A DNA stretch of 14,487 nucleotides from contig JAJRWI010000023.1 in the NCBI GenBank assembly GCA_024276825.1, positions 1-14,487 of the forward strand, given 5' to 3'. The notes below the pieces were generated by a model. That model worked only from the letters and a program-made list of their open reading frames with translations, was not told where the DNA came from and did not search any database. This document shows, piece by piece, positions 1 through 14,487 of this stretch. This stretch comes from an archaeon. GTDB lineage: Archaea; Asgardarchaeota; Thorarchaeia; Thorarchaeales; Thorarchaeaceae. The stretch's first letter is position 1. Each line of letters opens with the position of its first letter. Made by a program: the position numbers and the translations under genes.

Positions 1-260
1 AAGGACCATACAGACCACTCTGTGTGAGTACGACGACCCCGTCGTGGTAAGAAATGCGGAGACCCCCACTGTGTCAGGGAGTGATGTCCCTGAGAGTTCA
101 CAGGGGGAAGGAGGCCAGTTCTGTGATAATGCAGAAAAAGCCCCTGCGAACACCGATGTATCGGTGGGTGGTGACACCTGCAGGGGAAGGGCTGAACGCA
201 TGAGTCCTGTTCAGACGAGTTCACCACTGTGCGACAAGTCTGAACAAGATTAGGTTGTCA
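1..260 (+). mobile_element. 3' end of a multicopy element (copy 1 of an inverted pair), densely structured; putative IS200/IS605- or IS607-family (TnpB) right end / omega-RNA-like region
   Basis: Positions 2-260 match the reverse complement of 14229-14487 with 18 substitutions and no indels; 2-123 are identical. Homology stops abruptly after ...GGTTGTCA/GGTTGCCA. Stem-loops cover most of its length. The family assignment is inference, as no transposase or nuclease domain is inside the window. Confidence 0.6.
2..253 (+). CDS. 5'-truncated C-terminal tail of an element-encoded protein (possibly TnpB-like)
   Basis: The frame is open from the window edge (RTIQTTLCEYDDPVVVRNAETP...) to TAG 251-253. 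The other copy has TGG at this codon, so the stop is not conserved. No domain is recognisable. Confidence 0.35.
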   Translation, partial: RTIQTTLCEYDDPVVVRNAETPTVSGSDVPESSQGEGGQFCDNAEKAPANTDVSVGGDTCRGRAERMSPVQTSSPLCDKSEQD

Positions 261-312
261 TCACCTCCTTCGTAATGCTTTTATTCACAATGTTTTAACA
301 ACCCCATCGACA

Positions 313-778: not shown

Positions 779-1537
779 ATGGACATGCAACTCGCTGATA
801 AGACATTCCTCGTGACCGCATCCTCCCGAGGTCTTGGGCTCAGTGTTGCGCAAGCACTTGTTAATGAGGGTGCTGATGTCATCCTCTGCGGTCGAAACAA
901 AGAGCCTCTTGAGAAGGCGGTTTCAAAACTTGGAGCAAGAGCAGAATATGTTGTCGCAGATGTGTCAAAGAAGGAAGACATAATCCATCTTATCGATCAG
1001 ATACGATCCTCTAGGCACCAAATTGACGGTCTCTTTGCAAATGCAGGAGGTCCTCCACTTGGCACATTTGACTCTCTGCCTGAAGATGCATGGTACAACG
1101 CCTTTGAACTGACACTCATGAGTACTGTGCGACTGACACACGGTGTACTCTCTCTGTTGAAGCACTCTGCCTCACCATCTATACTCTACAACACCTCGAT
1201 CTCGGTGAAACAACCAATTGACAACCTATTGCTCTCCAATTCTCTTCGCGCTGCAGTGGTGGGAATGATGCGGACAGTGGCCAACGAGTTGGGCCCGCAC
1301 GGCATTCGCATCAATGCTGTCTGTCCAGGCTATATCTACACGCAACGTGTTGAAGACCTTATGGCACAAGGGCCACCCTCCCGGAAGGAGCAGATTGAGG
1401 CGGCAATTCCATTAAGGAGAATGGGTCACCCCGATGAGTTCGGCCCATTCTGTGCATTCCTCTTGAGTCCTAGGGCCAGCTACATCCATGGTGCACTCCT
1501 TCTCATCGATGGTGGTTTCCATAAGGGAATGATGTGA
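779..1537 (+). CDS. SDR family oxidoreductase (FabG/3-oxoacyl-ACP reductase-like, atypical active site)
   Basis: Rossmann motif TASSRGLG, NAGGP, INAVCPG, IPLRRMG and YIHG..IDGG. The catalytic YxxxK is replaced by SNSLR. Confidence 0.93.
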   Translation: MDMQLADKTFLVTASSRGLGLSVAQALVNEGADVILCGRNKEPLEKAVSKLGARAEYVVADVSKKEDIIHLIDQIRSSRHQIDGLFANAGGPPLGTFDSLPEDAWYNAFELTLMSTVRLTHGVLSLLKHSASPSILYNTSISVKQPIDNLLLSNSLRAAVVGMMRTVANELGPHGIRINAVCPGYIYTQRVEDLMAQGPPSRKEQIEAAIPLRRMGHPDEFGPFCAFLLSPRASYIHGALLLIDGGFHKGMM

Positions 1538-1538
1538 A

Positions 1539-2507
1539 TCATAATATCGGTGGAAAATCGGTGGGATCAATCACTCCCAGACGTAATAACGCTGCCTTTG
1601 CATAATTGCGAATCTGCTCATCTGTGTCCCTCAGAAGATCTTGCAGGTATCTGGTGGCGGGAGGATATGGTGAAACCCCCATGGCCCATGCTGCGGTACG
1701 TCTGACCTCGCTGTCCTCTGAGAGCAGGAGTTCTGCTATTGCCCTGAGAACAATCTCGGACTTCTTCTCGGCAAGAAGCTGTATCAGTCGGACCTGCCCC
1801 TTCGGTTTCTCATTTCTTAACGAGTCTGCAAGTCCCTGCAGGGCCCTTGAGTCATCCATGTCCCTGAGAGCCCTGATTGCCCAGTCGCGCACCTCATCGG
1901 ACTCATCCTCAAGAGCAGCCAGAAGACAGATGACCGAGTCAGGCGAACTGATCCTGCTTAATGCCCATGCTCCAGAGGCTCGAATGTCGGCATTGGGGTC
2001 TCCAAGTATCGCACATAGTACACCAATGCTCTCGCCATCAGCGATGTTGGTCAGTGCAAAGATGGCCTCTTTTCGAAGGTCGACACACTCATTGCGATCT
2101 CTGACTATCCTGCGGATGGCCCTCCCATACAAGGCAGGGTCCGTGCTTGCAAGAATATGGAGGGCCCACTTTCTCACTTCAAAGTCATCACTGGGGTTCA
2201 GAAGTATGTTCAGGACAACATCATTCATGTCATCTATCCGTTCTCGGTAGGCTGCCTTCAGCGCCATCACCCTGATTTTTAAGTCCTCCTCACTCAATGC
2301 TCTCATTATCACTGCCACTGCCAGTCGGGGCATCAACATATCAACAATGTTCATCACCACACTCTTGTCCTCCTCTGTTCCTCCCTCCCCAAAGATGTCT
2401 GTCAGCAATGCCTCAAAATCCTCTGCATGGGAATTGATGTAGTCAATACTCTCCCTCAGGGTCTCTCTATCACTACTCTCTCGGATAGAGGCGAGCACAC
2501 TCTTCAT
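1539..2507 (-). CDS. HEAT-repeat (PBS lyase-like) protein
   Basis: Repeated D.(.)VR..A..AL units (DFEVRKWALHIL, DLRKEAIFAL, NADIRASGAWAL, DEVRDWAIRAL, SEVRRTAAWAM, EQIRNYAKAAL). SD-like GAGGT upstream. Confidence 0.9.
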   Translation of the reverse strand: MKSVLASIRESSDRETLRESIDYINSHAEDFEALLTDIFGEGGTEEDKSVVMNIVDMLMPRLAVAVIMRALSEEDLKIRVMALKAAYRERIDDMNDVVLNILLNPSDDFEVRKWALHILASTDPALYGRAIRRIVRDRNECVDLRKEAIFALTNIADGESIGVLCAILGDPNADIRASGAWALSRISSPDSVICLLAALEDESDEVRDWAIRALRDMDDSRALQGLADSLRNEKPKGQVRLIQLLAEKKSEIVLRAIAELLLSEDSEVRRTAAWAMGVSPYPPATRYLQDLLRDTDEQIRNYAKAALLRLGVIDPTDFPPIL

Positions 2508-2536
2508 ATTAGTAATACCTCATCTCACTGACACTC

Positions 2537-2545
2537 TTTATATAA
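2537..2545 (-). promoter_or_regulatory. TATA box for the HEAT-repeat gene
   Basis: TTATATAAA on the minus strand ~30 nt upstream of ATG 2507, abutting the SIS gene stop codon. Confidence 0.5.
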
Positions 2546-3550
2546 TCAATAAATCTTGAAAGCATTTGCATTGGGCTGCCGCCATCCGGTCTTTTCAGGA
2601 CTGTACCTCAATACCGTGTAGTAAGCTGCCATCTGAAGGGTTATTGTGTTGACTATGGCCTGACCAAGATCCGACCCAAGTCCAAGTTTCTCATCTGCAT
2701 GTGAATGGTAAACACTCATCTTCAGAGTGTCCTTCAGTACTCTGAGATATCTCAGATCATCATCTGTGACAGGATCATCGGTGATAAGAACCACCTGATC
2801 CCCCTCATCTAGGTTGAGGTTCCAGTGATGACAGAACTCCTCGCGTAGCGCCACCATACTGTGCAATAGTGAATACTCATTGAACTTCATCTGACCAAGC
2901 TGTGCAGCCACATAATTGGGCCCATCCGACACAAGGTACAGCGGCCTGTCACGTATGAGCATCTCTGCAATCCTTTTTCCCTCTGCTTCTGCCCAGTCGA
3001 TCATGGCATCGCCAATCTCCCGCAGCCTGCTCAAGTCCTCCTGCTCAGGCACGAGAGTAGTATTGGAACACGTGTTCCCAATCTTGAAGAGATACGCCAT
3101 GGCACTGGTGGTCGGTGATGATGGACTGATGTTATACGACTCCACTAGGGCCCGAGTCACCCACACTTCATCAGCATTCTCACTGGCCCTCCCTCTCCTG
3201 TCATCTGTCAGGACCACAGTACGTGCGCCTCTGTTCCGTGCATGCTTCAGGGCTGCTATGGTTGCCAGACTTCTGCCCGACGCGGTGATTCCTATGATCA
3301 CTGTATCAGGGTCGATATACACCCTCGGAACCTCTGTCGGGGACAGGGCAACCGCCTGACATCCTGCCCTCCTAAACACCCACTGTCCGTAGTGTGCTAC
3401 CGCATAGGAGTCGCCGCAACCAGTCAGAATTATGTCACTCTCACTCAGAGAGAGCCCCTCAATCACGCACTCTGTGGACTCGAGGGTCTCACGAATCGCC
3501 TCACCCTGCACCCTGATCGCCTGATAACACGCATCCAAGAACTCGGTCAT
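2546..3550 (-). CDS. SIS-domain sugar-phosphate isomerase/deglycase (GlmS isomerase/AgaS/FrlB-like, two SIS domains, no glutaminase domain)
   Basis: Motifs LTGCGDSY, IGITASGRS.AT..AL..AR..GA and SPSSPTTS, plus a second SIS domain with GP.Y..A..G.MKFNE and EEFCH. Confidence 0.88.
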   Translation of the reverse strand: MTEFLDACYQAIRVQGEAIRETLESTECVIEGLSLSESDIILTGCGDSYAVAHYGQWVFRRAGCQAVALSPTEVPRVYIDPDTVIIGITASGRSLATIAALKHARNRGARTVVLTDDRRGRASENADEVWVTRALVESYNISPSSPTTSAMAYLFKIGNTCSNTTLVPEQEDLSRLREIGDAMIDWAEAEGKRIAEMLIRDRPLYLVSDGPNYVAAQLGQMKFNEYSLLHSMVALREEFCHHWNLNLDEGDQVVLITDDPVTDDDLRYLRVLKDTLKMSVYHSHADEKLGLGSDLGQAIVNTITLQMAAYYTVLRYSPEKTGWRQPNANAFKIY

Positions 3551-3626
3551 ACTCCTAGTATGGACTCCATTCTAGATATCAACATTTGGAAGCAATGAGA
3601 CCTCCTGACCGAAAGTCCCAGTTCAC

Positions 3627-3851
3627 TTACTCCTTTATCAGACCAATTATGAAGAGAATGACTCCAAATCCAATGAGGCCCAACATGACCTCCGTGAAGA
3701 CGTACCCTCCCAGCTCTGTTGAGAATATTCCCTGATCGAAATACACCAGCACAGAACTGAGATCAACATATGCCGCCAGATACGTCGACAGTATCGGCAA
3801 CAGGCCTACTATTATCAAGATTATTCCTAGAAATGCTAAGGTCTTTCCCAT
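3627..3851 (-). CDS. small membrane protein (74 aa, two predicted TM helices)
   Basis: Hydrophobic N-terminal (LAFLGIILIIVGLLPIL) and C-terminal (VMLGLIGFGVILFIIGLI) segments. Confidence 0.75.
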   Translation of the reverse strand: MGKTLAFLGIILIIVGLLPILSTYLAAYVDLSSVLVYFDQGIFSTELGGYVFTEVMLGLIGFGVILFIIGLIKE

Positions 3852-3989
3852 TTGAATCCCTTTCGTCCTTTCTCTTTGCTCTTTTCTGTGAGCACTCTCT
3901 ACTCACATTCATCCTATAAAAATCAGCGGTTTCCCTTCTCCCCCAAAATTAGTGGCGCCCCCGCCGGGATTTGAACCCGGGTCTCAAGA

Positions 3990-4019
3990 TTCGTCCATAG
4001 CAACTGTCGCCTGCAATGC
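3990..4019 (-). other. tRNA intron, position 38/39, 30 nt
   Basis: Central helix TGTC/GACG, bulges AC^G and AA^T, outer helix CAT-T-GCAG/TTGC-T-ATG (relaxed HBh'). A 37/38 placement gives no good central helix. Confidence 0.78.
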
Positions 4020-4038
4020 GTGACAGTCTTGAATGCTA

Positions 4039-4068
4039 CACCGGACCACACAGGGGGTCTGTTTGGTT
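4039..4068 (-). other. tRNA intron, D-loop (20a/20b), 30 nt
   Basis: BHB motif: central helix CCGG/CCGG, bulges CC^A and TG^T, outer hairpin ACCA-A-ACAG/CTGT-G-TGGT. Confidence 0.85.
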
Positions 4069-4496
4069 GGCCGGACTACACTACAGGGGCACCTGATTGA
4101 GTAGATGGCGGTGAGGACAATTGATTTTCTATTAAACTTGTCGTTGTGAAAGGTGATTCAAAAGACAGATCAGTAAAACCCGATAAGGCTCACGATTGAA
4201 ATGCTTGAGATTGTTGCCCTGCAATACATTTTTTTGTGAAGATGTGATATTATACAATGGACCGAATAAGTCGGTTGAAAGATTAGCTGATACTCCAATT
4301 TGGTGTTTTATCGCAATCCTTTTATGTTTTTGAAAATTGAGAGCTTTGCTCAAGTTGAATTGCTTCCCGTCCATGCATGGCCATATGATACATAACGTTA
4401 GAGCAGTAGTCATAAATATCACTAGAGACGGCATGTTGCATGTGGCACCAACTCGCATAGGGCTCGTGGCGCAGCTGGAAGCGCAGCAGGCTTTTA

Positions 4497-4520
4497 AGCT
4501 GATGGACTATCAGCAAAGAA
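4497..4520 (+). other. tRNA intron, canonical 37/38, 24 nt
   Basis: Strict BHB: CTTT/AAAG central helix, bulges TA^A and AA^A, outer helix GCTGAT/ATCAGC. Confidence 0.92.
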
Positions 4521-4536
4521 ACCTGAGGGTCGCGGG

Positions 4537-4566
4537 ATCCTTCTCCATTTGGGGGCAGGACGCGAG
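4537..4566 (+). other. tRNA intron, T-arm 53/54, 30 nt
   Basis: Central helix CGCG/CGCG, bulges GG^A and AG^T, outer helix TCCT/AGGA (relaxed HBh'). Confidence 0.85.
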
Positions 4567-4606
4567 TTCAAATCCCGCCGAGCCCGCCACAACTTGTGCG
4601 GACTTG

Positions 4607-4738
4607 GATGAGGGGGCAATACGACTAAGGCAGAAAAAGCGGGGCGACCCACTGCGGCAATATGAACTCAGTTTTCTGAGGTCATGCGTTGGGAAGCGTG
4701 TGTCGGCAGTGGAGGACCCCGTCCCACTCATTAGGTGG
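4607..4738 (+). ncRNA. candidate structured cis-regulatory leader RNA upstream of rpoB
   Basis: Nested helices GATGAG/CTCATT, CGGGG/CCCCG, CCACTGC/GCAGTGG, GGCA/TGTC, ATGA-CTCAG/CTGAG-TCAT, and GCGTT/AGCGT with a GGGA loop. It ends at the SD AGGTGG 4733-4738. Confidence 0.55.
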
Positions 4739-4745
4739 CAAAGTC

Positions 4746-7700
4746 ATGTCAGACAAGAAAGAAAGGGGTAAGTATTGGCCTGTAATAGAGGCATTCTTTA
4801 GTCACTATGGGCTTGTAGGTCAGCACTTAGACTCCTTCAACCGATTTATTCGAGAGGAGCTTCAACAAGTAGTCGATAGTGTTGGAGAGATCAAGCCAAA
4901 GGTGGAGGGATATACAGTACAACTGGGGCGTATTCATGTCATGCCCCCAACCGTACGTGAAGCGGATGGCAGTGAGCATCCCCTATATCCCAATGAGGCC
5001 AGAATTCGAAACCTCACTTATGCAAGTAAGCTCTATCTGGAATGCACACCCGTGAAAAAGGATGGTGGGACAACCACTCATCTGGAAACCCTCGAGATCT
5101 ATATTGGCGACCTTCCAATCATGCTTCGGAGTGAGAAGTGTCTTCTACATGGCATGTCCGATGAGGAACTCATTGCACATGGCGAGGATCCCAAAGACCC
5201 TGGCGGCTATTTCATCATCAACGGGTCTGAGCGCGTATTAGTGACCCAAGAAGATTTGGCGCCAAACAGGATTCTCATTGAAGAGGCCAGCAAGAGCTCA
5301 AGCTATACCCATATCGCCAAGGTGTTTTCAACATCAAGGGGGTTCAGAGCACCAGTAACCATTGAGAGAAAACGTACTGGGGAATTGCGTGTTTCATTTC
5401 CATCCGTTCCTGGAAAAATACCCCTTGCAATCCTGATGAAGGCATTAGGCCTTGAGTCTGACAGAGAGATCGTCGAGGTAATATCTGATGATGAAGAGAT
5501 TCGAAACGAACTCATTGTGACAATTGAGCAGTCTGCACCCATCAATGCATCTCGTGATGCCGAAGAGGGCTCCACTCGAATCAATGCCCTTGACTTTATT
5601 GGAAAACGAGTCGCAGTTGGCCAGACAAAAGAGTACAGACTTGCACGAGCAGAAAAAGTGCTTGATCGCTATCTATTCCCACACATAGGCACCGAACCAG
5701 AGCATAGGCTTCAGAAGGCTTACTATCTTGGTCAGATGGTGGAGCGCCTGCTGGAACTCGTCTTGGGCAAACGCCAACCGGATGACAAGGACCATTATGC
5801 AAACAAACGACTGAAGCTCTCTGGAGACCTGTTGATGTCCCTGTTCAGAGTCGCATTGTATTCACTCACTCGCGACATCAAATATCAGTTGGAACGTACA
5901 GCCGTACGTGGGAGAAAACCAAATATCAAGACAGCAGTCCGAGCAGATGTCATCACTCAGAGGCTGAAGCATGCATTAGCCACTGGAAACTGGGTGGGTG
6001 GGAAGGCTGGAGTGTCACAGTTACTTGATAGGACAAATTACATATCATCACTCTCACACCTCAGGAGAGTTGTTTCACCCTTATCACGATCACAACCCCA
6101 CTTTGAAGCACGAGACCTTCATTCAACTCACTGGGGCAAAATATGTCCAAATGAAACCCCTGAAGGTCCAAACTGTGGTCTTGTCAAGAACATAGCAATG
6201 ATGGCCTACATCTCGGTGGGTACTGATGAGGAGGCCGTCGAACGCGCACTACTAAGGGCTGAAGTCGAACCTATTGAAAACCTCAAGGGCAAGCGTCATA
6301 CTAAATGGGCTGATGTGTTTCTCAACGGCAGACTTGTTGGAATTCATCCTGCACCGCAGGTTCTTGTGAAGGTGATTCGACAGAAGCGTCGTGCTGGAGA
6401 GATTGACAACGAGGTCAATATCGCATACTATGAGGATACAAACGAGGTGCAGGTAAACTGCGATGCTGGACGTGTCCGACGACCACTCATAATTGTTGAG
6501 AATGGAAAGAGCCGTCTGACCGACGAGCACCTTAAGATGATTGAGAGCGGTGAATGGGGATTTGTTGATCTTTTGCGAAATGGCATCGTCGAATTCCTTG
6601 ATGCTGAAGAGGAAGAGAACACCCTGATTGCAATGTATCCCTCTGATATCAATAAGAAAACAACACACCTTGAGATTGAACCCTCTACAATCCTTGGGAT
6701 TTCTGCAGCACTCATCCCCTTCCCCGAACGAAACCAATCCCCCCGAAATGTGTACATGGCCGCCATGGTCAAACAATCAGTTGGTGTGCCAGCATCAAAC
6801 TTCAAATATCGTGCAGACACAAGAGCCCACTTCTTCCATTATCCGCAGGTCCCGCTAGTCAAAACCAGAGCAATGGACTCAATAGGATACGAGGAACGTC
6901 CCGCGGGACAGAACTTTGTTGTTGCAATACTGTCCTTCGAGGGCTATAACATTGAAGATGCACTCATCATGAACAAGGCCTCTATTGAACGCGGTCTTGG
7001 CAGGAGCACCTTCTGTCGTGTATATGAGAGTGAAGAGCGAAAATATCCTGGCGGACAGGAGGATAAGTTTGAGATTCCCAACCGGAGTATCAGAGGATAC
7101 AGGGCGTCTGAGGCATACCGAAATCTTGGAGAAGATGGAATCATTGAAACCGAGGTGGAGGTACAGGGCGGTGATGTCTTGATTGGTCGCACCTCACCAC
7201 CCAGATTCCTTGAGGAATATTCAGAGTTCGATATCACATCTCCTAACCGTCGTGAAACCTCTGTGGCAGTGAGGCATGGAGAGTCTGGTGTCGTCGACAG
7301 CGTTATTCTCACCGAAACAATTGATGGTAATCGTCTGGTAAAAGTAAAGGTCAGAGACCTCAGAATTCCCGAACTTGGTGACAAGTACGCCTCTCGACAC
7401 GGGCAGAAGGGTGTCCTTGGCTATATTGTTCCTCAAGAGGATGTTCCATTCACAGAGGACGGTGTTGTCCCAGACCTGATTATCAACCCACACGCAATCC
7501 CAAGCAGAATGACAATCGGTCAAATCATGGAGATGATTGCTGGGAAAGCAGCAGCTTTGGATGGACATCAACAAGATGCCACTGCCTTCAGTGGTGTCAG
7601 TGAGGAGGAACTGTTCAAGATACTCCACAAGCATGGCTTTCAGTGGAATGGCCGCGAAACCATGTATTCGGGTATCACAGGTGAACGCTTGCAGGCCAAT

Positions 7701-14154: not shown

Positions 14155-14228
14155 TGATTTATATCCGACGGCACTTTTGCTGAATTGGTTGCTAATGAAA
14201 AATGGATGGCTTGCATGGATCGCAGTCC

Positions 14229-14487
14229 TGGCAACCCAATCCTTTTCAAACTTGTCGTGCAATGGTGAACTCGTCTGAACAAGGTCCATGTGTTTAGCCC
14301 TTCCCCTGCAGGTGTCACCACCCACCGATACATCGGTGTTCGCAGGAGCTTTTCCTGCGTTATCGCAGAACTGGCCTCCTTCCCCCTGTGAACTCTCAGG
14401 GACATCACTCCCTGACACAGTGGGGGTCTCCGCATTTCTTACCACGACGGGGTCGTCGTACTCACACAGAGTGGTCTGTATGGTCCT
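14229..14487 (-). mobile_element. 3' end of the same multicopy element (copy 2, inverted)
   Basis: Reverse complement of 2-260 at 241/259 identity. The frame is open from the window edge and runs past the repeat boundary to a stop at 14146 in flanking DNA. Confidence 0.6.

What the first reader, a model, noticed from the sequence alone, without database searches (positions are those of the whole stretch)
1..260. Element end that behaves like a conserved structured RNA (omega-RNA-like) rather than a protein tail
Seen: helices at 7-14/19-26, 29-35/40-46, 64-73/99-107 enclosing 74-80/87-93, 119-125/130-136, 141-147/180-186 enclosing 151-156/161-166 and a GTGA-capped 167-170/175-178, and 208-216/238-246. 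Of 18 differences between the copies, 17 are transitions. Those in stems keep pairing: 124 U.G->C-G, 130 G.U->G-C, 135 U-A->U.G, 142 C-G->U.G and 240 G-C->G.U. The ORF stop is not conserved (TAG vs TGG). Homology ends sharply at GTTGYCA, followed by unrelated flanks. Established: TnpB omega-RNAs of IS200/IS605 and IS607 overlap the tnpB 3' end, finish at the element right end and take their guide from flanking DNA. Inference: this is an Asgard RNA-guided nuclease scaffold of at least 260 nt, with candidate guides TCACCTCCTTCGTAATGC (261-278) and GGACTGCGATCCATGCAA (14228-14211, minus strand).
Basis: partly seen in the sequence, partly recalled or inferred. Interest (0 to 1): 0.72.

Follow-up and report, generated by a model that had tools for sequence, protein, structure and literature searches.

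The report
Orphan TnpB guide-RNA scaffold, Asgard mini-transposon
Both ends of this contig are the right ends of small gene-less IS607-type transposon remnants in a Thorarchaeota (Asgard) genome; each keeps the folded guide-RNA (omega RNA) scaffold of a TnpB nuclease, which is real and well conserved but a kind of element already described.

Summary
Window 2-260 and 14229-14487 are inverted copies (93%), with 18 differences (17 transitions). All nine helices exist and the five claimed pair-keeping changes are correct; a sixth stem change (245) breaks a pair.

The stretch is the 3' three-quarters of a TnpB omega-RNA (reRNA) scaffold.
- A divergent copy sits at the 3' end of the genome's only tnpB.
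- In related genomes the same RNA follows tnpB genes of a Thorarchaeota clade of at least 558 proteins.
- Across 30 sequences, 95% of cells pair (42-50% when partners are slid), with 156 compensatory cells.
- G.U outnumbers A.C 141 to 21, so it is an RNA in the tnpB sense.
- A covariance model built only from relatives finds the window copies at 57-74 bits.
- Supported structure continues upstream of the contig start, so the whole scaffold is about 350 nt.

All copies end at GGTTGT-CA, followed by unrelated flanks.

The window copies are not attached to tnpB. They belong to roughly 640-bp mini-elements with an IS607-type left end (a decayed MerR-HTH tnpA start). No intact tnpA is assembled.

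Guide use of the flank (261 onward) is inferred only; there are no RNA data.

Stand-alone omega RNAs are already published, and this scan noted the same family on other contigs of this genome. I rate it a new member of a known kind, of moderate to low interest.

The parts
1..260 (+). Copy A: the 3' part of the omega-RNA scaffold and the right end of a mini-element of about 640 bp. The contig begins inside the element. The left half is probably the start of contig C47 or C36, with about 60 nt unassembled.
   Evidence: R1 model: 73.7 bits over 135-266
2..115 (+). Decayed remnant of the last ~38 codons of tnpB (frame 2), overlapped by the RNA scaffold. In this lineage an 18-nt hairpin that holds the tnpB stop codon in relatives is deleted, so the frame runs on to 253.
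40..46 (+). 3' arm of a conserved long-range helix (CCGCGGC / GCCGUGG in relatives). Its 5' arm lies upstream of the contig start.
   Evidence: helix 6 of A7: 98.6% paired; contig C4 copy keeps it by a double change
65..107 (+). Stem-loop: outer helix 65-73/99-107 enclosing 75-78/89-92.
   Evidence: (helices 1 and 2: 99% and 88% paired, 7 pairs with double changes)
114..192 (+). Central domain closed by 114-116/190-192. It holds hairpin 121-124/131-134, helix 141-148/179-186, the sequence-hypervariable but paired hairpin 151-156/161-166, and the GUGA-capped 167-170/175-178.
   Evidence: (helices 3, 4, 6, 7, 8)
208..246 (+). Terminal hairpin 208-216/238-246, with the conserved GTTCAC motif in its loop. 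Its 3' arm is also one copy of a subterminal repeat that occurs inverted in the element's left end.
   Evidence: (85% paired in relatives, 4 pairs with double changes)
247..260 (+). 3' tail of the scaffold and the right-end boundary: ...AGGTTGT, then C (15/17 copies) and A (11/17 copies).
   Evidence: the fixed right-flanking nucleotide of IS607 belongs to the scaffold in ISXfa1 (PMC10711439)
261..280 (+). Candidate guide of copy A (inferred). It is unique in the genome and lies just upstream of the TATA-like box of tRNA-Tyr (313-389).
   Evidence: inference from the TnpB/IS607 mechanism
14229..14487 (-). Copy B: the same scaffold and right end on the minus strand. It has one broken pair in the terminal hairpin and a lower model score.
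   Evidence: (57.4 bits)
14209..14228 (-). Candidate guide of copy B (inferred); unique in the genome.

Best explanation
Window 1-260 and its inverted twin at 14229-14487 are the right-end parts of two gene-less IS607-type mini-transposons, about 640 bp each, in a Thorarchaeota genome. Each carries the omega-RNA (reRNA) scaffold of a TnpB RNA-guided nuclease. The scaffold is a multi-helix RNA of about 350 nt in the tnpB sense. It starts about 90 nt upstream of the contig start, runs over the decayed last codons of tnpB, and ends at GGTTGT-CA (258/260).

Shown here: homology to the RNA behind real tnpB genes, covariation, strand specificity, the shared boundary, and the mini-element architecture.

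Inferred from the established TnpB mechanism: the transcript reads on for about 16-20 nt into the flank (from 261, and from 14228 downward on the minus strand), and that stretch is the guide. A TnpB supplied in trans would use it to cut the empty site left after excision by a serine-recombinase TnpA, so that homologous repair copies the element back. The one resident TnpB is C24:45302-46951, which has the rearranged RuvC-II glutamate.

In this assembly there is no intact tnpA. The only TnpB has its own scaffold, just 68% identical over the part that aligns. The two copies are therefore most likely relics of a once-mobile guide-RNA carrier, still close to foldable, and whether they act today is open. 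The confidence given is for what the sequence is (a TnpB omega-RNA scaffold at the right end of a mini-element). For present-day function of these two copies I would give about 0.4.
For: 1. A 68%-identical copy starts at the 3' end of the genome's only tnpB.
2. In 26 loci of related genomes the matches to the window lie on the C-terminal codons of TnpB homologues, followed downstream by the same RNA.
3. Alignment A2 (30 sequences): 41 pairs, 95.2% of cells paired versus 42-50% for slid partners, 156 compensatory cells versus 21-34, 0/500 shuffles.
4. The upstream part, A7 (21 sequences): 40 pairs, 94.8% versus 42-50%, 88 compensatory cells versus 8-27.
5. G.U 141 versus A.C 21 in paired cells, so the structure is strand-specific.
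6. Model R1, built only from relatives, finds copy A at 73.7 bits, copy B at 57.4 bits and the tnpB-linked copy at 80.9 bits.
7. The 3' boundary is shared by all copies and by an independent run's contig. Two same-genus genomes have no element upstream of tRNA-Tyr, and homology resumes about 8 nt right of 260.
8. A MerR-HTH remnant (PF00376, 8e-14) lies at the left end of complete mini-elements. Its closest intact relative is a 207-221 aa MerR-plus-resolvase TnpA.
9. The TnpB clade keeps RuvC-I D (GIDLG), the alternative E six residues before CxxC, RuvC-III D (NADRNG) and the Zn ribbon, as defined in PMC10711439 and PMC10691335.
10. The frame through the stretch is not under protein selection, and Pfam finds nothing in it.
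Against: - There are no RNA data: no listed run holding the stretch is on record as RNA, so transcription, the 5' and 3' ends and the guide length are all inferred.
- No resolvase domain is found in this 98%-complete assembly.
- There is only one tnpB, and its own scaffold differs considerably from the mini-element scaffold.
- Other copies are truncated at various points (q75, q99, q148, q162, q194), which looks like decay.
- Copy B has a broken pair and a lower score.
- Full-length tnpB genes of this clade in relatives stand without a tnpA, and the closest intact TnpA sits beside a different 707-aa TnpB-like gene with no R1 RNA. The link between this RNA family and a serine recombinase therefore rests on the mini-elements alone.
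- The 5' part of both window copies is missing from the assembly.
Confidence: 0.88

Rival explanations
1. The copies are inert relics. The scaffold is what remains of a dead IS607-type element and drifts neutrally; it looks conserved only because the copies are young. This agrees with the best explanation on what the sequence is, and differs only on whether it still does anything.
For: No tnpA domain in the assembly. One tnpB with a divergent scaffold. A graded series of truncated copies. Copy B has a broken pair and a lower model score. The transition bias is the same outside stems.
Against: Five of six stem substitutions between the two copies keep pairing. Truncated copies from several genera, and this genome's mini-elements, all keep the RNA from about the same 5' point near TnpB codon 450, behind unrelated upstream sequences. 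Scaffold matches outnumber tnpB-core matches about 3:1 across 41 family genomes (445 vs 138), which suggests retention. Stand-alone omega RNAs work in trans in other systems (PMC10691335).
Confidence: 0.45
2. The conserved right end is mainly a DNA-level signal, i.e. binding sites for the serine-recombinase TnpA, and the apparent RNA folding is a by-product of inverted DNA repeats.
For: The 3' arm of the terminal hairpin (ACAAGTTTGAACAAG type) recurs in inverted orientation inside the left end, as expected of recombinase sites. IS607 ends are recognised as double-stranded DNA (PMC10711439).
Against: Covariation extends over about 350 nt and 80 pairs, far beyond a terminal binding site. G.U pairs exceed A.C by 141 to 21, which a double-stranded DNA signal cannot explain. 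The same RNA follows solo tnpB genes that have a different left end. At most this explains the last ~40 nt, which may serve both roles.
Confidence: 0.08
3. The stretch is a protein-coding C-terminal extension of TnpB: the open frame 2-253 is real coding sequence.
For: The frame is open for 83 codons in copy A and for 133 codons in the C4 copy. One related full-length TnpB (670 aa, G030) reads through the scaffold in the same way.
Against: 11 of 18 differences are nonsynonymous and the stop is lost in copy B. No Pfam match. In most relatives tnpB stops inside the hairpin that is deleted here. There is no tnpB body upstream in the mini-elements.
Confidence: 0.03
4. The scaffolds are trans-acting guides aimed at host or foreign targets elsewhere, as in regulatory or defensive use, and not at their own insertion sites.
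For: Orphan scaffolds outnumber tnpB. Copy A sits 52 nt upstream of tRNA-Tyr.
Against: The 18 nt after each of eight right ends match only their own flank perfectly; other hits need 2-3 mismatches, which is chance level. Only 2 of 17 right ends lie within 400 nt of a detected tRNA.
Confidence: 0.07

Closest known systems
TnpB omega RNA / reRNA of IS607-family elements (e.g. ISXfa1, PMC10711439; IS607 IStron work, bioRxiv 10.1101/2023.11.20.567912)
   Same: Sense-strand structured RNA that overlaps the 3' end of tnpB and ends at the transposon right end. A fixed nucleotide or two after the end (here C, A) is conserved, as for the IS607 right-flanking nucleotide that belongs to the scaffold. The left end carries a MerR-HTH serine-recombinase tnpA start.
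   Different: The scaffold is much longer: about 350 nt here and about 415 nt in relatives, against about 150 nt reported for ISXfa1. It overlaps about 100 codons of tnpB. The likely junction dinucleotide is not GG. The window copies have neither tnpA nor tnpB. There is no Rfam family or sequence similarity to published scaffolds.
Stand-alone omega RNAs of OMEGA systems (Altae-Tran 2021, as summarised in PMC10691335) and gene-less PATE-like IS200/IS605 elements that carry omega RNAs (PMC10055086)
   Same: Mobilised elements that keep the guide-RNA scaffold but no effector or transposase, in genomes that also hold an effector; they would need TnpB in trans.
   Different: Those cases are bacterial, of IscB or IS200/IS605 (Y1 transposase) type. 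These are archaeal (Thorarchaeota), have IS607-type left ends, and pair with a TnpB that has the rearranged RuvC-II glutamate.
Asgard-linked TnpB groups with a conserved GTTCACTCA motif downstream of tnpB (Cas1H-Asgard-1/-2, PMC10691335)
   Same: Asgard host. The same 9-nt motif lies downstream of tnpB; here it is in the loop of the terminal hairpin of the scaffold.
   Different: The paper describes a hypervariable stretch directly upstream of the motif and an aCas1 partner. Here the bases upstream of the motif are conserved and form part of a hairpin. Cas1 is not a partner: genera rich in this tnpB and RNA have no Cas1 hit, and the one nearby case is an ordinary Cas1-Cas2-Cas4 module beside a truncated copy.
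TnpBs with the alternative RuvC-II glutamate (Ealt with D-hydrophobic-G in RuvC-I, PMC10711439; RIIr branches with E replaced by G, PMC10691335)
   Same: The canonical Glu is replaced by Gly (AIGRL), and an invariant Glu lies six residues before the first CxxC.
   Different: RuvC-I is D-L-G, not the D-P-G of Fanzors and 'pro-Fanzors', so this is not the Fanzor-like subclade. I did not determine which named branch of the published tree it belongs to.

Membership tests
TnpB omega RNA (reRNA) | Lies in sense orientation over and behind the 3' end of a tnpB gene | tested here: met
   Met for the family: the own tnpB-linked copy at C24:46958-47078 and seven related full-length loci. The window copies themselves keep only the last ~38 tnpB codons.
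TnpB omega RNA (reRNA) | Conserved secondary structure supported by covariation, on one strand | tested here: met
   A2: 95.2% paired, 156 compensatory cells, 0/500 shuffles. A7: 94.8% paired, 88 compensatory cells. G.U 141 vs A.C 21.
TnpB omega RNA (reRNA) | Scaffold ends at the transposon right end; what follows differs between copies | tested here: met
   All copies end at GGTTGT-CA followed by unrelated flanks. An independent contig shows the same. The site is empty in two congeners.
TnpB omega RNA (reRNA) | RNA is expressed, carries a flank-derived guide of about 16-20 nt, and is bound by TnpB | not testable with these tools
   No listed run holding the stretch is on record as RNA.
TnpB omega RNA (reRNA) | A transposon-adjacent motif (TAM) next to the left end | tested here: inconclusive
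   Left flanks end in R-C-N before GT(A/G)A in 16 copies, a weak motif. No base-exact empty site could be found.
IS607 family | Serine-recombinase TnpA with an N-terminal MerR-type HTH | tested here: inconclusive
   Only the HTH start survives, with stop codons in several copies. The closest intact relative is a MerR-plus-resolvase TnpA in G005. There is no PF00239 hit in this genome.
IS607 family | Insertion by crossover at a matching dinucleotide, without target-site duplication | tested here: inconclusive
   C-A predominates at both junctions, but the two junctions match in only 3 of 10 complete copies (my count). No longer duplication was seen.
TnpB nuclease (resident partner, C24) | RuvC D-E-D triad and a CxxC...CxxC zinc ribbon | tested here: met
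   D in GIDLG, the alternative E in (P/H)EAWTS, six residues before CxxC, D in NADRNG, and C4 present. The canonical E position is G. PF07282 5e-12; aligns to solved TnpB/Cas12f.
aCas1-associated Asgard TnpB transposons | An Asgard Cas1 homologue beside tnpB | tested here: not met
   There are no PF01867 hits in genera with many copies. The single nearby case is a CRISPR adaptation module. A very divergent aCas1 could escape PF01867.
Any Rfam family | Match to a curated covariance model | tested here: not met
   Only tRNAs and an unrelated ribosomal leader matched.

The most novel reading that the evidence does not exclude
Thorarchaeota maintain a trans-acting multi-guide system. Gene-less mini-elements each carry an unusually long omega-RNA gene (350-415 nt) that may have its own promoter: a TATA-like box lies 22-35 nt before the shared 5' start near GGACTAGG. 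These outnumber tnpB about 3:1 and are serviced by a few TnpBs with the rearranged catalytic site. Under this reading the window copies are working guide genes, and the GTTCACTCA motif that the 2023 census left unexplained is simply the terminal loop of this scaffold.
Probability: 0.2. Interest if true: 0.6.

Novelty: new member of a known kind. Interest (0 to 1): 0.35.

Why it matters
This gives a covariation-backed secondary structure, and a working covariance model, for the guide RNA of a large Asgard-archaeal TnpB clade that has no Rfam family. It places a motif noted but left unexplained in the 2023 TnpB census (GTTCACTCA) in the terminal loop of that RNA. It shows that orphan scaffolds outnumber nuclease genes about 3:1 in this archaeal family. 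That helps with annotating Asgard genomes, where these repeats break assemblies. It also gives anyone who wants to test an Asgard TnpB with the rearranged catalytic site a defined scaffold to start from. It does not reveal a new kind of system.

Tried and rejected
- The search for related loci with the TnpB in genome contigs returned nothing usable.
- Sequencing runs: no RNA holder listed. The one DNA run held only a small share and came from another sample; it gave no contig reaching past position 1.
- Base-exact empty site and TAM: the same-genus genomes are too diverged in intergenic DNA. Only the tRNA and its promoter align, so the junction is fixed only to within about 8 nt.
- Joining C47 or C36 to the C12 ends: the orientation and the position left of tRNA-Tyr in G001 and G002 are compatible, but 2.4-7.8 kb of other sequence lies between them there, so adjacency is not shown.
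- aCas1 partnership: rejected.
- Trans targets of the candidate guides: none beyond chance.
- Left ends of full-length solo tnpB elements versus truncated copies: no BLAST similarity.
- Helix 7-14/19-26: supported only within this genome's lineage (contig C4 copy has a compensatory change), with no counterpart in relatives.
- The inner hairpin in the loop of the terminal stem is weak: 72% paired, no double changes.
- Rfam: no family.

Full report
**What is in the sequence**

The window is an entire 14,487-bp contig (C12) of a 2.94-Mb, 82-contig genome. Its two ends are inverted copies, 2-260 and 14229-14487, 93% alike. The copies differ at 18 positions, 17 of them transitions, all between 124 and 258. 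The first 123 nt are identical, which is why the assembler stopped there.

The substitutions at 124, 130, 135, 142 and 240 keep their pairs exactly as claimed. Eleven of the twelve differences outside stems are also transitions, so the bias is largely mutational and is not evidence for structure.

The + strand folds far better than shuffled sequence (z = -5.6); the minus strand gives -3.5. The frame 2-253 is open, but 11 of the 18 changes are nonsynonymous, one turns the stop TAG into TGG, and it has no Pfam match.

**Copies and boundary**

The genome holds 14 copies or fragments. All end at ...AGGTTGT followed by C (15 of 17) and A (11 of 17), and then by unrelated sequence. They begin at different points (query positions 1, 4, 9, 75, 99, 148, 162, 194), which looks like a series of truncations.

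A contig from an unrelated public run matches 139-260 and then runs on into other sequence. In the two same-genus genomes the RNA is absent upstream of tRNA-Tyr. Homology with the window (the tRNA promoter region) starts about 8 nt to the right of 260. These are effectively empty sites, but they are too diverged to fix the junction to the base.

**Link to TnpB**

The genome has one tnpB (C24:45302-46951, 549 aa; PF07282 5e-12). A 68%-identical copy of the repeat begins at its last codons.

In related genomes, DNA matches to the window fall on the C-terminus of TnpB homologues: full-length in six loci, and only the last ~100 codons in about twenty. Window 1 to about 115 aligns with the codons of the TnpB C-terminal tail. 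In most relatives the tnpB stop lies in a small hairpin that is deleted in this lineage, so the frame runs on here.

The proteins keep RuvC-I D (GIDLG), RuvC-III D (NADRNG) and the C4 zinc ribbon. They have Gly at the canonical RuvC-II Glu, and an invariant Glu six residues before the first CxxC. This is the 'alternative E' arrangement described by Yoon et al. (PMC10711439) and the E-to-G rearranged class of Altae-Tran et al. (PMC10691335). RuvC-I is D-L-G, not the D-P-G of Fanzors.

**The RNA**

In an alignment of five copies from this genome, the tnpB-linked copy and 24 relatives (A2), RNAalifold finds 41 pairs, 24 of them with double compensatory changes. On that structure:
- 95.2% of cells pair, against 42-50% when the 3' partners are slid by 1-3 columns.
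- There are 156 compensatory cells, against 21-34 in the slid controls.
- None of 500 column shuffles reaches any observed measure.

There is one more, a closing helix 114-116/190-192.

The terminal hairpin (208-216/238-246) is out of register between this lineage and the relatives in the MAFFT alignment. Tested on relatives alone, it is 85% paired, with double changes in four pairs.

Paired cells hold 141 G.U against 21 A.C. The structure therefore belongs to the + strand, i.e. it is an RNA in the tnpB sense and not a DNA cruciform or a recombinase site.

A covariance model built from 23 relatives only (R1, 3' domain) finds copy A at 73.7 bits, copy B at 57.4 bits and the tnpB-linked copy at 80.9 bits. 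Rfam has no matching family.

**The scaffold is longer than the window shows**

Upstream of the region matching window position 27, relatives and the two complete mini-elements of this genome share another ~170 nt with 40 predicted pairs, 25 with double changes. These are 94.8% paired against 42-50% for slid partners, with 0/500 shuffles reaching the observed values.

One of these helices is long-range (CCGCGGC with GCCGUGG). Its 3' arm is window 40-46 and its 5' arm lies off the contig. The C4 copy keeps it through a double change. Helix 7-14/19-26 has no counterpart in relatives.

The whole scaffold is thus about 350 nt here and about 415 nt in relatives, and it overlaps roughly the last 100 codons of tnpB.

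Truncated copies from several genera, and this genome's mini-elements, all resume homology with full-length tnpB near one point (GGACTAGG, codon ~450), behind unrelated upstream sequences that often hold a TATA-like box 22-35 nt away. I read this as a hint that the RNA unit starts there. It is not shown.

**What element the window copies belong to**

Complete copies on C4 and C28 are about 640 bp. In order, they contain:
- a left end (GTAAA.TTCAGAAG...);
- the start of a MerR-HTH gene (PF00376, 8e-14), with stop codons in several copies;
- the last ~100 tnpB codons;
- the scaffold and the right end.

Contigs C47 and C36 begin with such left halves, and about 60 nt separates them from the C12 ends. 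Shorter derivatives keep only the left end and the last 65-100 nt.

The closest intact relative of the HTH remnant is a 207-221 aa MerR-plus-resolvase protein in G005, i.e. an IS607-type TnpA. However, it sits beside a different 707-aa TnpB-like gene with no R1 RNA. Full-length tnpB genes of this clade stand alone, with a different left end. This genome has no resolvase domain at all.

The left end holds, inverted, the same 15-nt word that forms the 3' arm of the terminal hairpin, so the last ~40 nt may double as a recombinase site.

**Mechanism (inferred)**

By analogy with characterised TnpB systems, the transcript should run 16-20 nt into the flank and use it as guide. In ISXfa1 the fixed right-flanking nucleotide is part of the scaffold (PMC10711439).

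The 18 nt after eight right ends match only their own flank. This fits homing-type guides and gives no support for targets elsewhere.

With no tnpA and a single, rather different tnpB-linked scaffold, I cannot say whether the two window copies still work. I put that at roughly even odds.

**Distribution**

In 41 genomes of the family, R1 finds 445 scaffolds in 34 genomes, while the TnpB core (residues 201-447) finds 138 matches in 33 genomes. This genome has 9 versus 1 and G013 has 79 versus 7. The closest relative, G001, has neither. Matches are not exact copy numbers, and the assemblies are fragmented.

**Comparison with what is known**

Stand-alone omega RNAs that lack effector and transposase, and that work in trans, are already published (summarised in PMC10691335). 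So are gene-less PATE-like carriers of omega RNAs in IS200/IS605 (PMC10055086).

The 2023 census noted a conserved GTTCACTCA downstream of Asgard tnpB genes, tied it to aCas1-associated groups and left its nature open. Here that motif lies in the loop of the terminal hairpin. Cas1 is not a partner of this clade in the genomes searched.

Earlier notes of this scan, on other contigs of this same genome, reached the same reading. I tested the identity and structure claims independently here. The tRNA-proximity lead did not generalise: 2 of 17 right ends.

**Verdict**

It is a new member of a known kind.

Noticed in passing
window 4460-4586 (+) and about 3941-3983 (-): Rfam calls a 127-nt tRNA, presumably intron-containing, at 4460-4586 that ARAGORN missed. 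The 43-nt inverted repeat I2 (3941-3983 / 4559-4601) looks like the T-arm and acceptor 3' halves of two tRNAs on opposite strands, so a second unrecognised tRNA may lie on the minus strand near 3941.
   Followed up: partly
window 279-289 and 313-389: Copy A ends 52 nt before tRNA-Tyr. A TATA-like TTTTATT conserved in both same-genus genomes lies between them, so the element sits just upstream of the tRNA promoter and its predicted guide abuts it.
   Followed up: partly
L043 (G030:C326) about 2550-2950: Upstream of a 670-aa TnpB whose frame reads through the scaffold, a unit of about 100 nt containing the left-end motif (GAGTTCAAAAGTCC...GAACAGGTTGCAA...TTTATA) is repeated three times in tandem.
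   Followed up: no
L091 (G005:C19) 1383-3506 (-) and 4270-4893 (-): An IS607-type TnpA whose N-terminus is nearly identical to the remnant in this genome is paired with a 707-aa TnpB-like protein whose RuvC-III region reads NRHHNAA instead of NADRN. This may be an inactivated or rearranged nuclease.
   Followed up: no
L016, L017, L021 (G005, G029, G020; one genus): Three species share the same flank downstream of a truncated tnpB-tail-plus-scaffold copy. That copy has therefore stayed at an orthologous site since before the species split.
   Followed up: no
L104 (G008:C19) 2133-5386: A truncated scaffold copy lies directly behind a Cas1-Cas2-Cas4 adaptation module and next to what looks like a CRISPR array (a repeated peptide in a spurious ORF). 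I read it as a chance insertion.
   Followed up: partly
window 170-174 and 220-224: GGUGA in the GUGA-capped hairpin is complementary to UCACC in the conserved GTTCAC loop motif (UCACU in relatives, still pairing by G.U). This is a possible pseudoknot that I did not test.
   Followed up: no
G000:C81:166331-166728: This is a second, unrelated decayed IS607-like remnant: a MerR-HTH start of the LGVCPKTIRRWD type next to a 62-aa PF07282 fragment.
   Followed up: no
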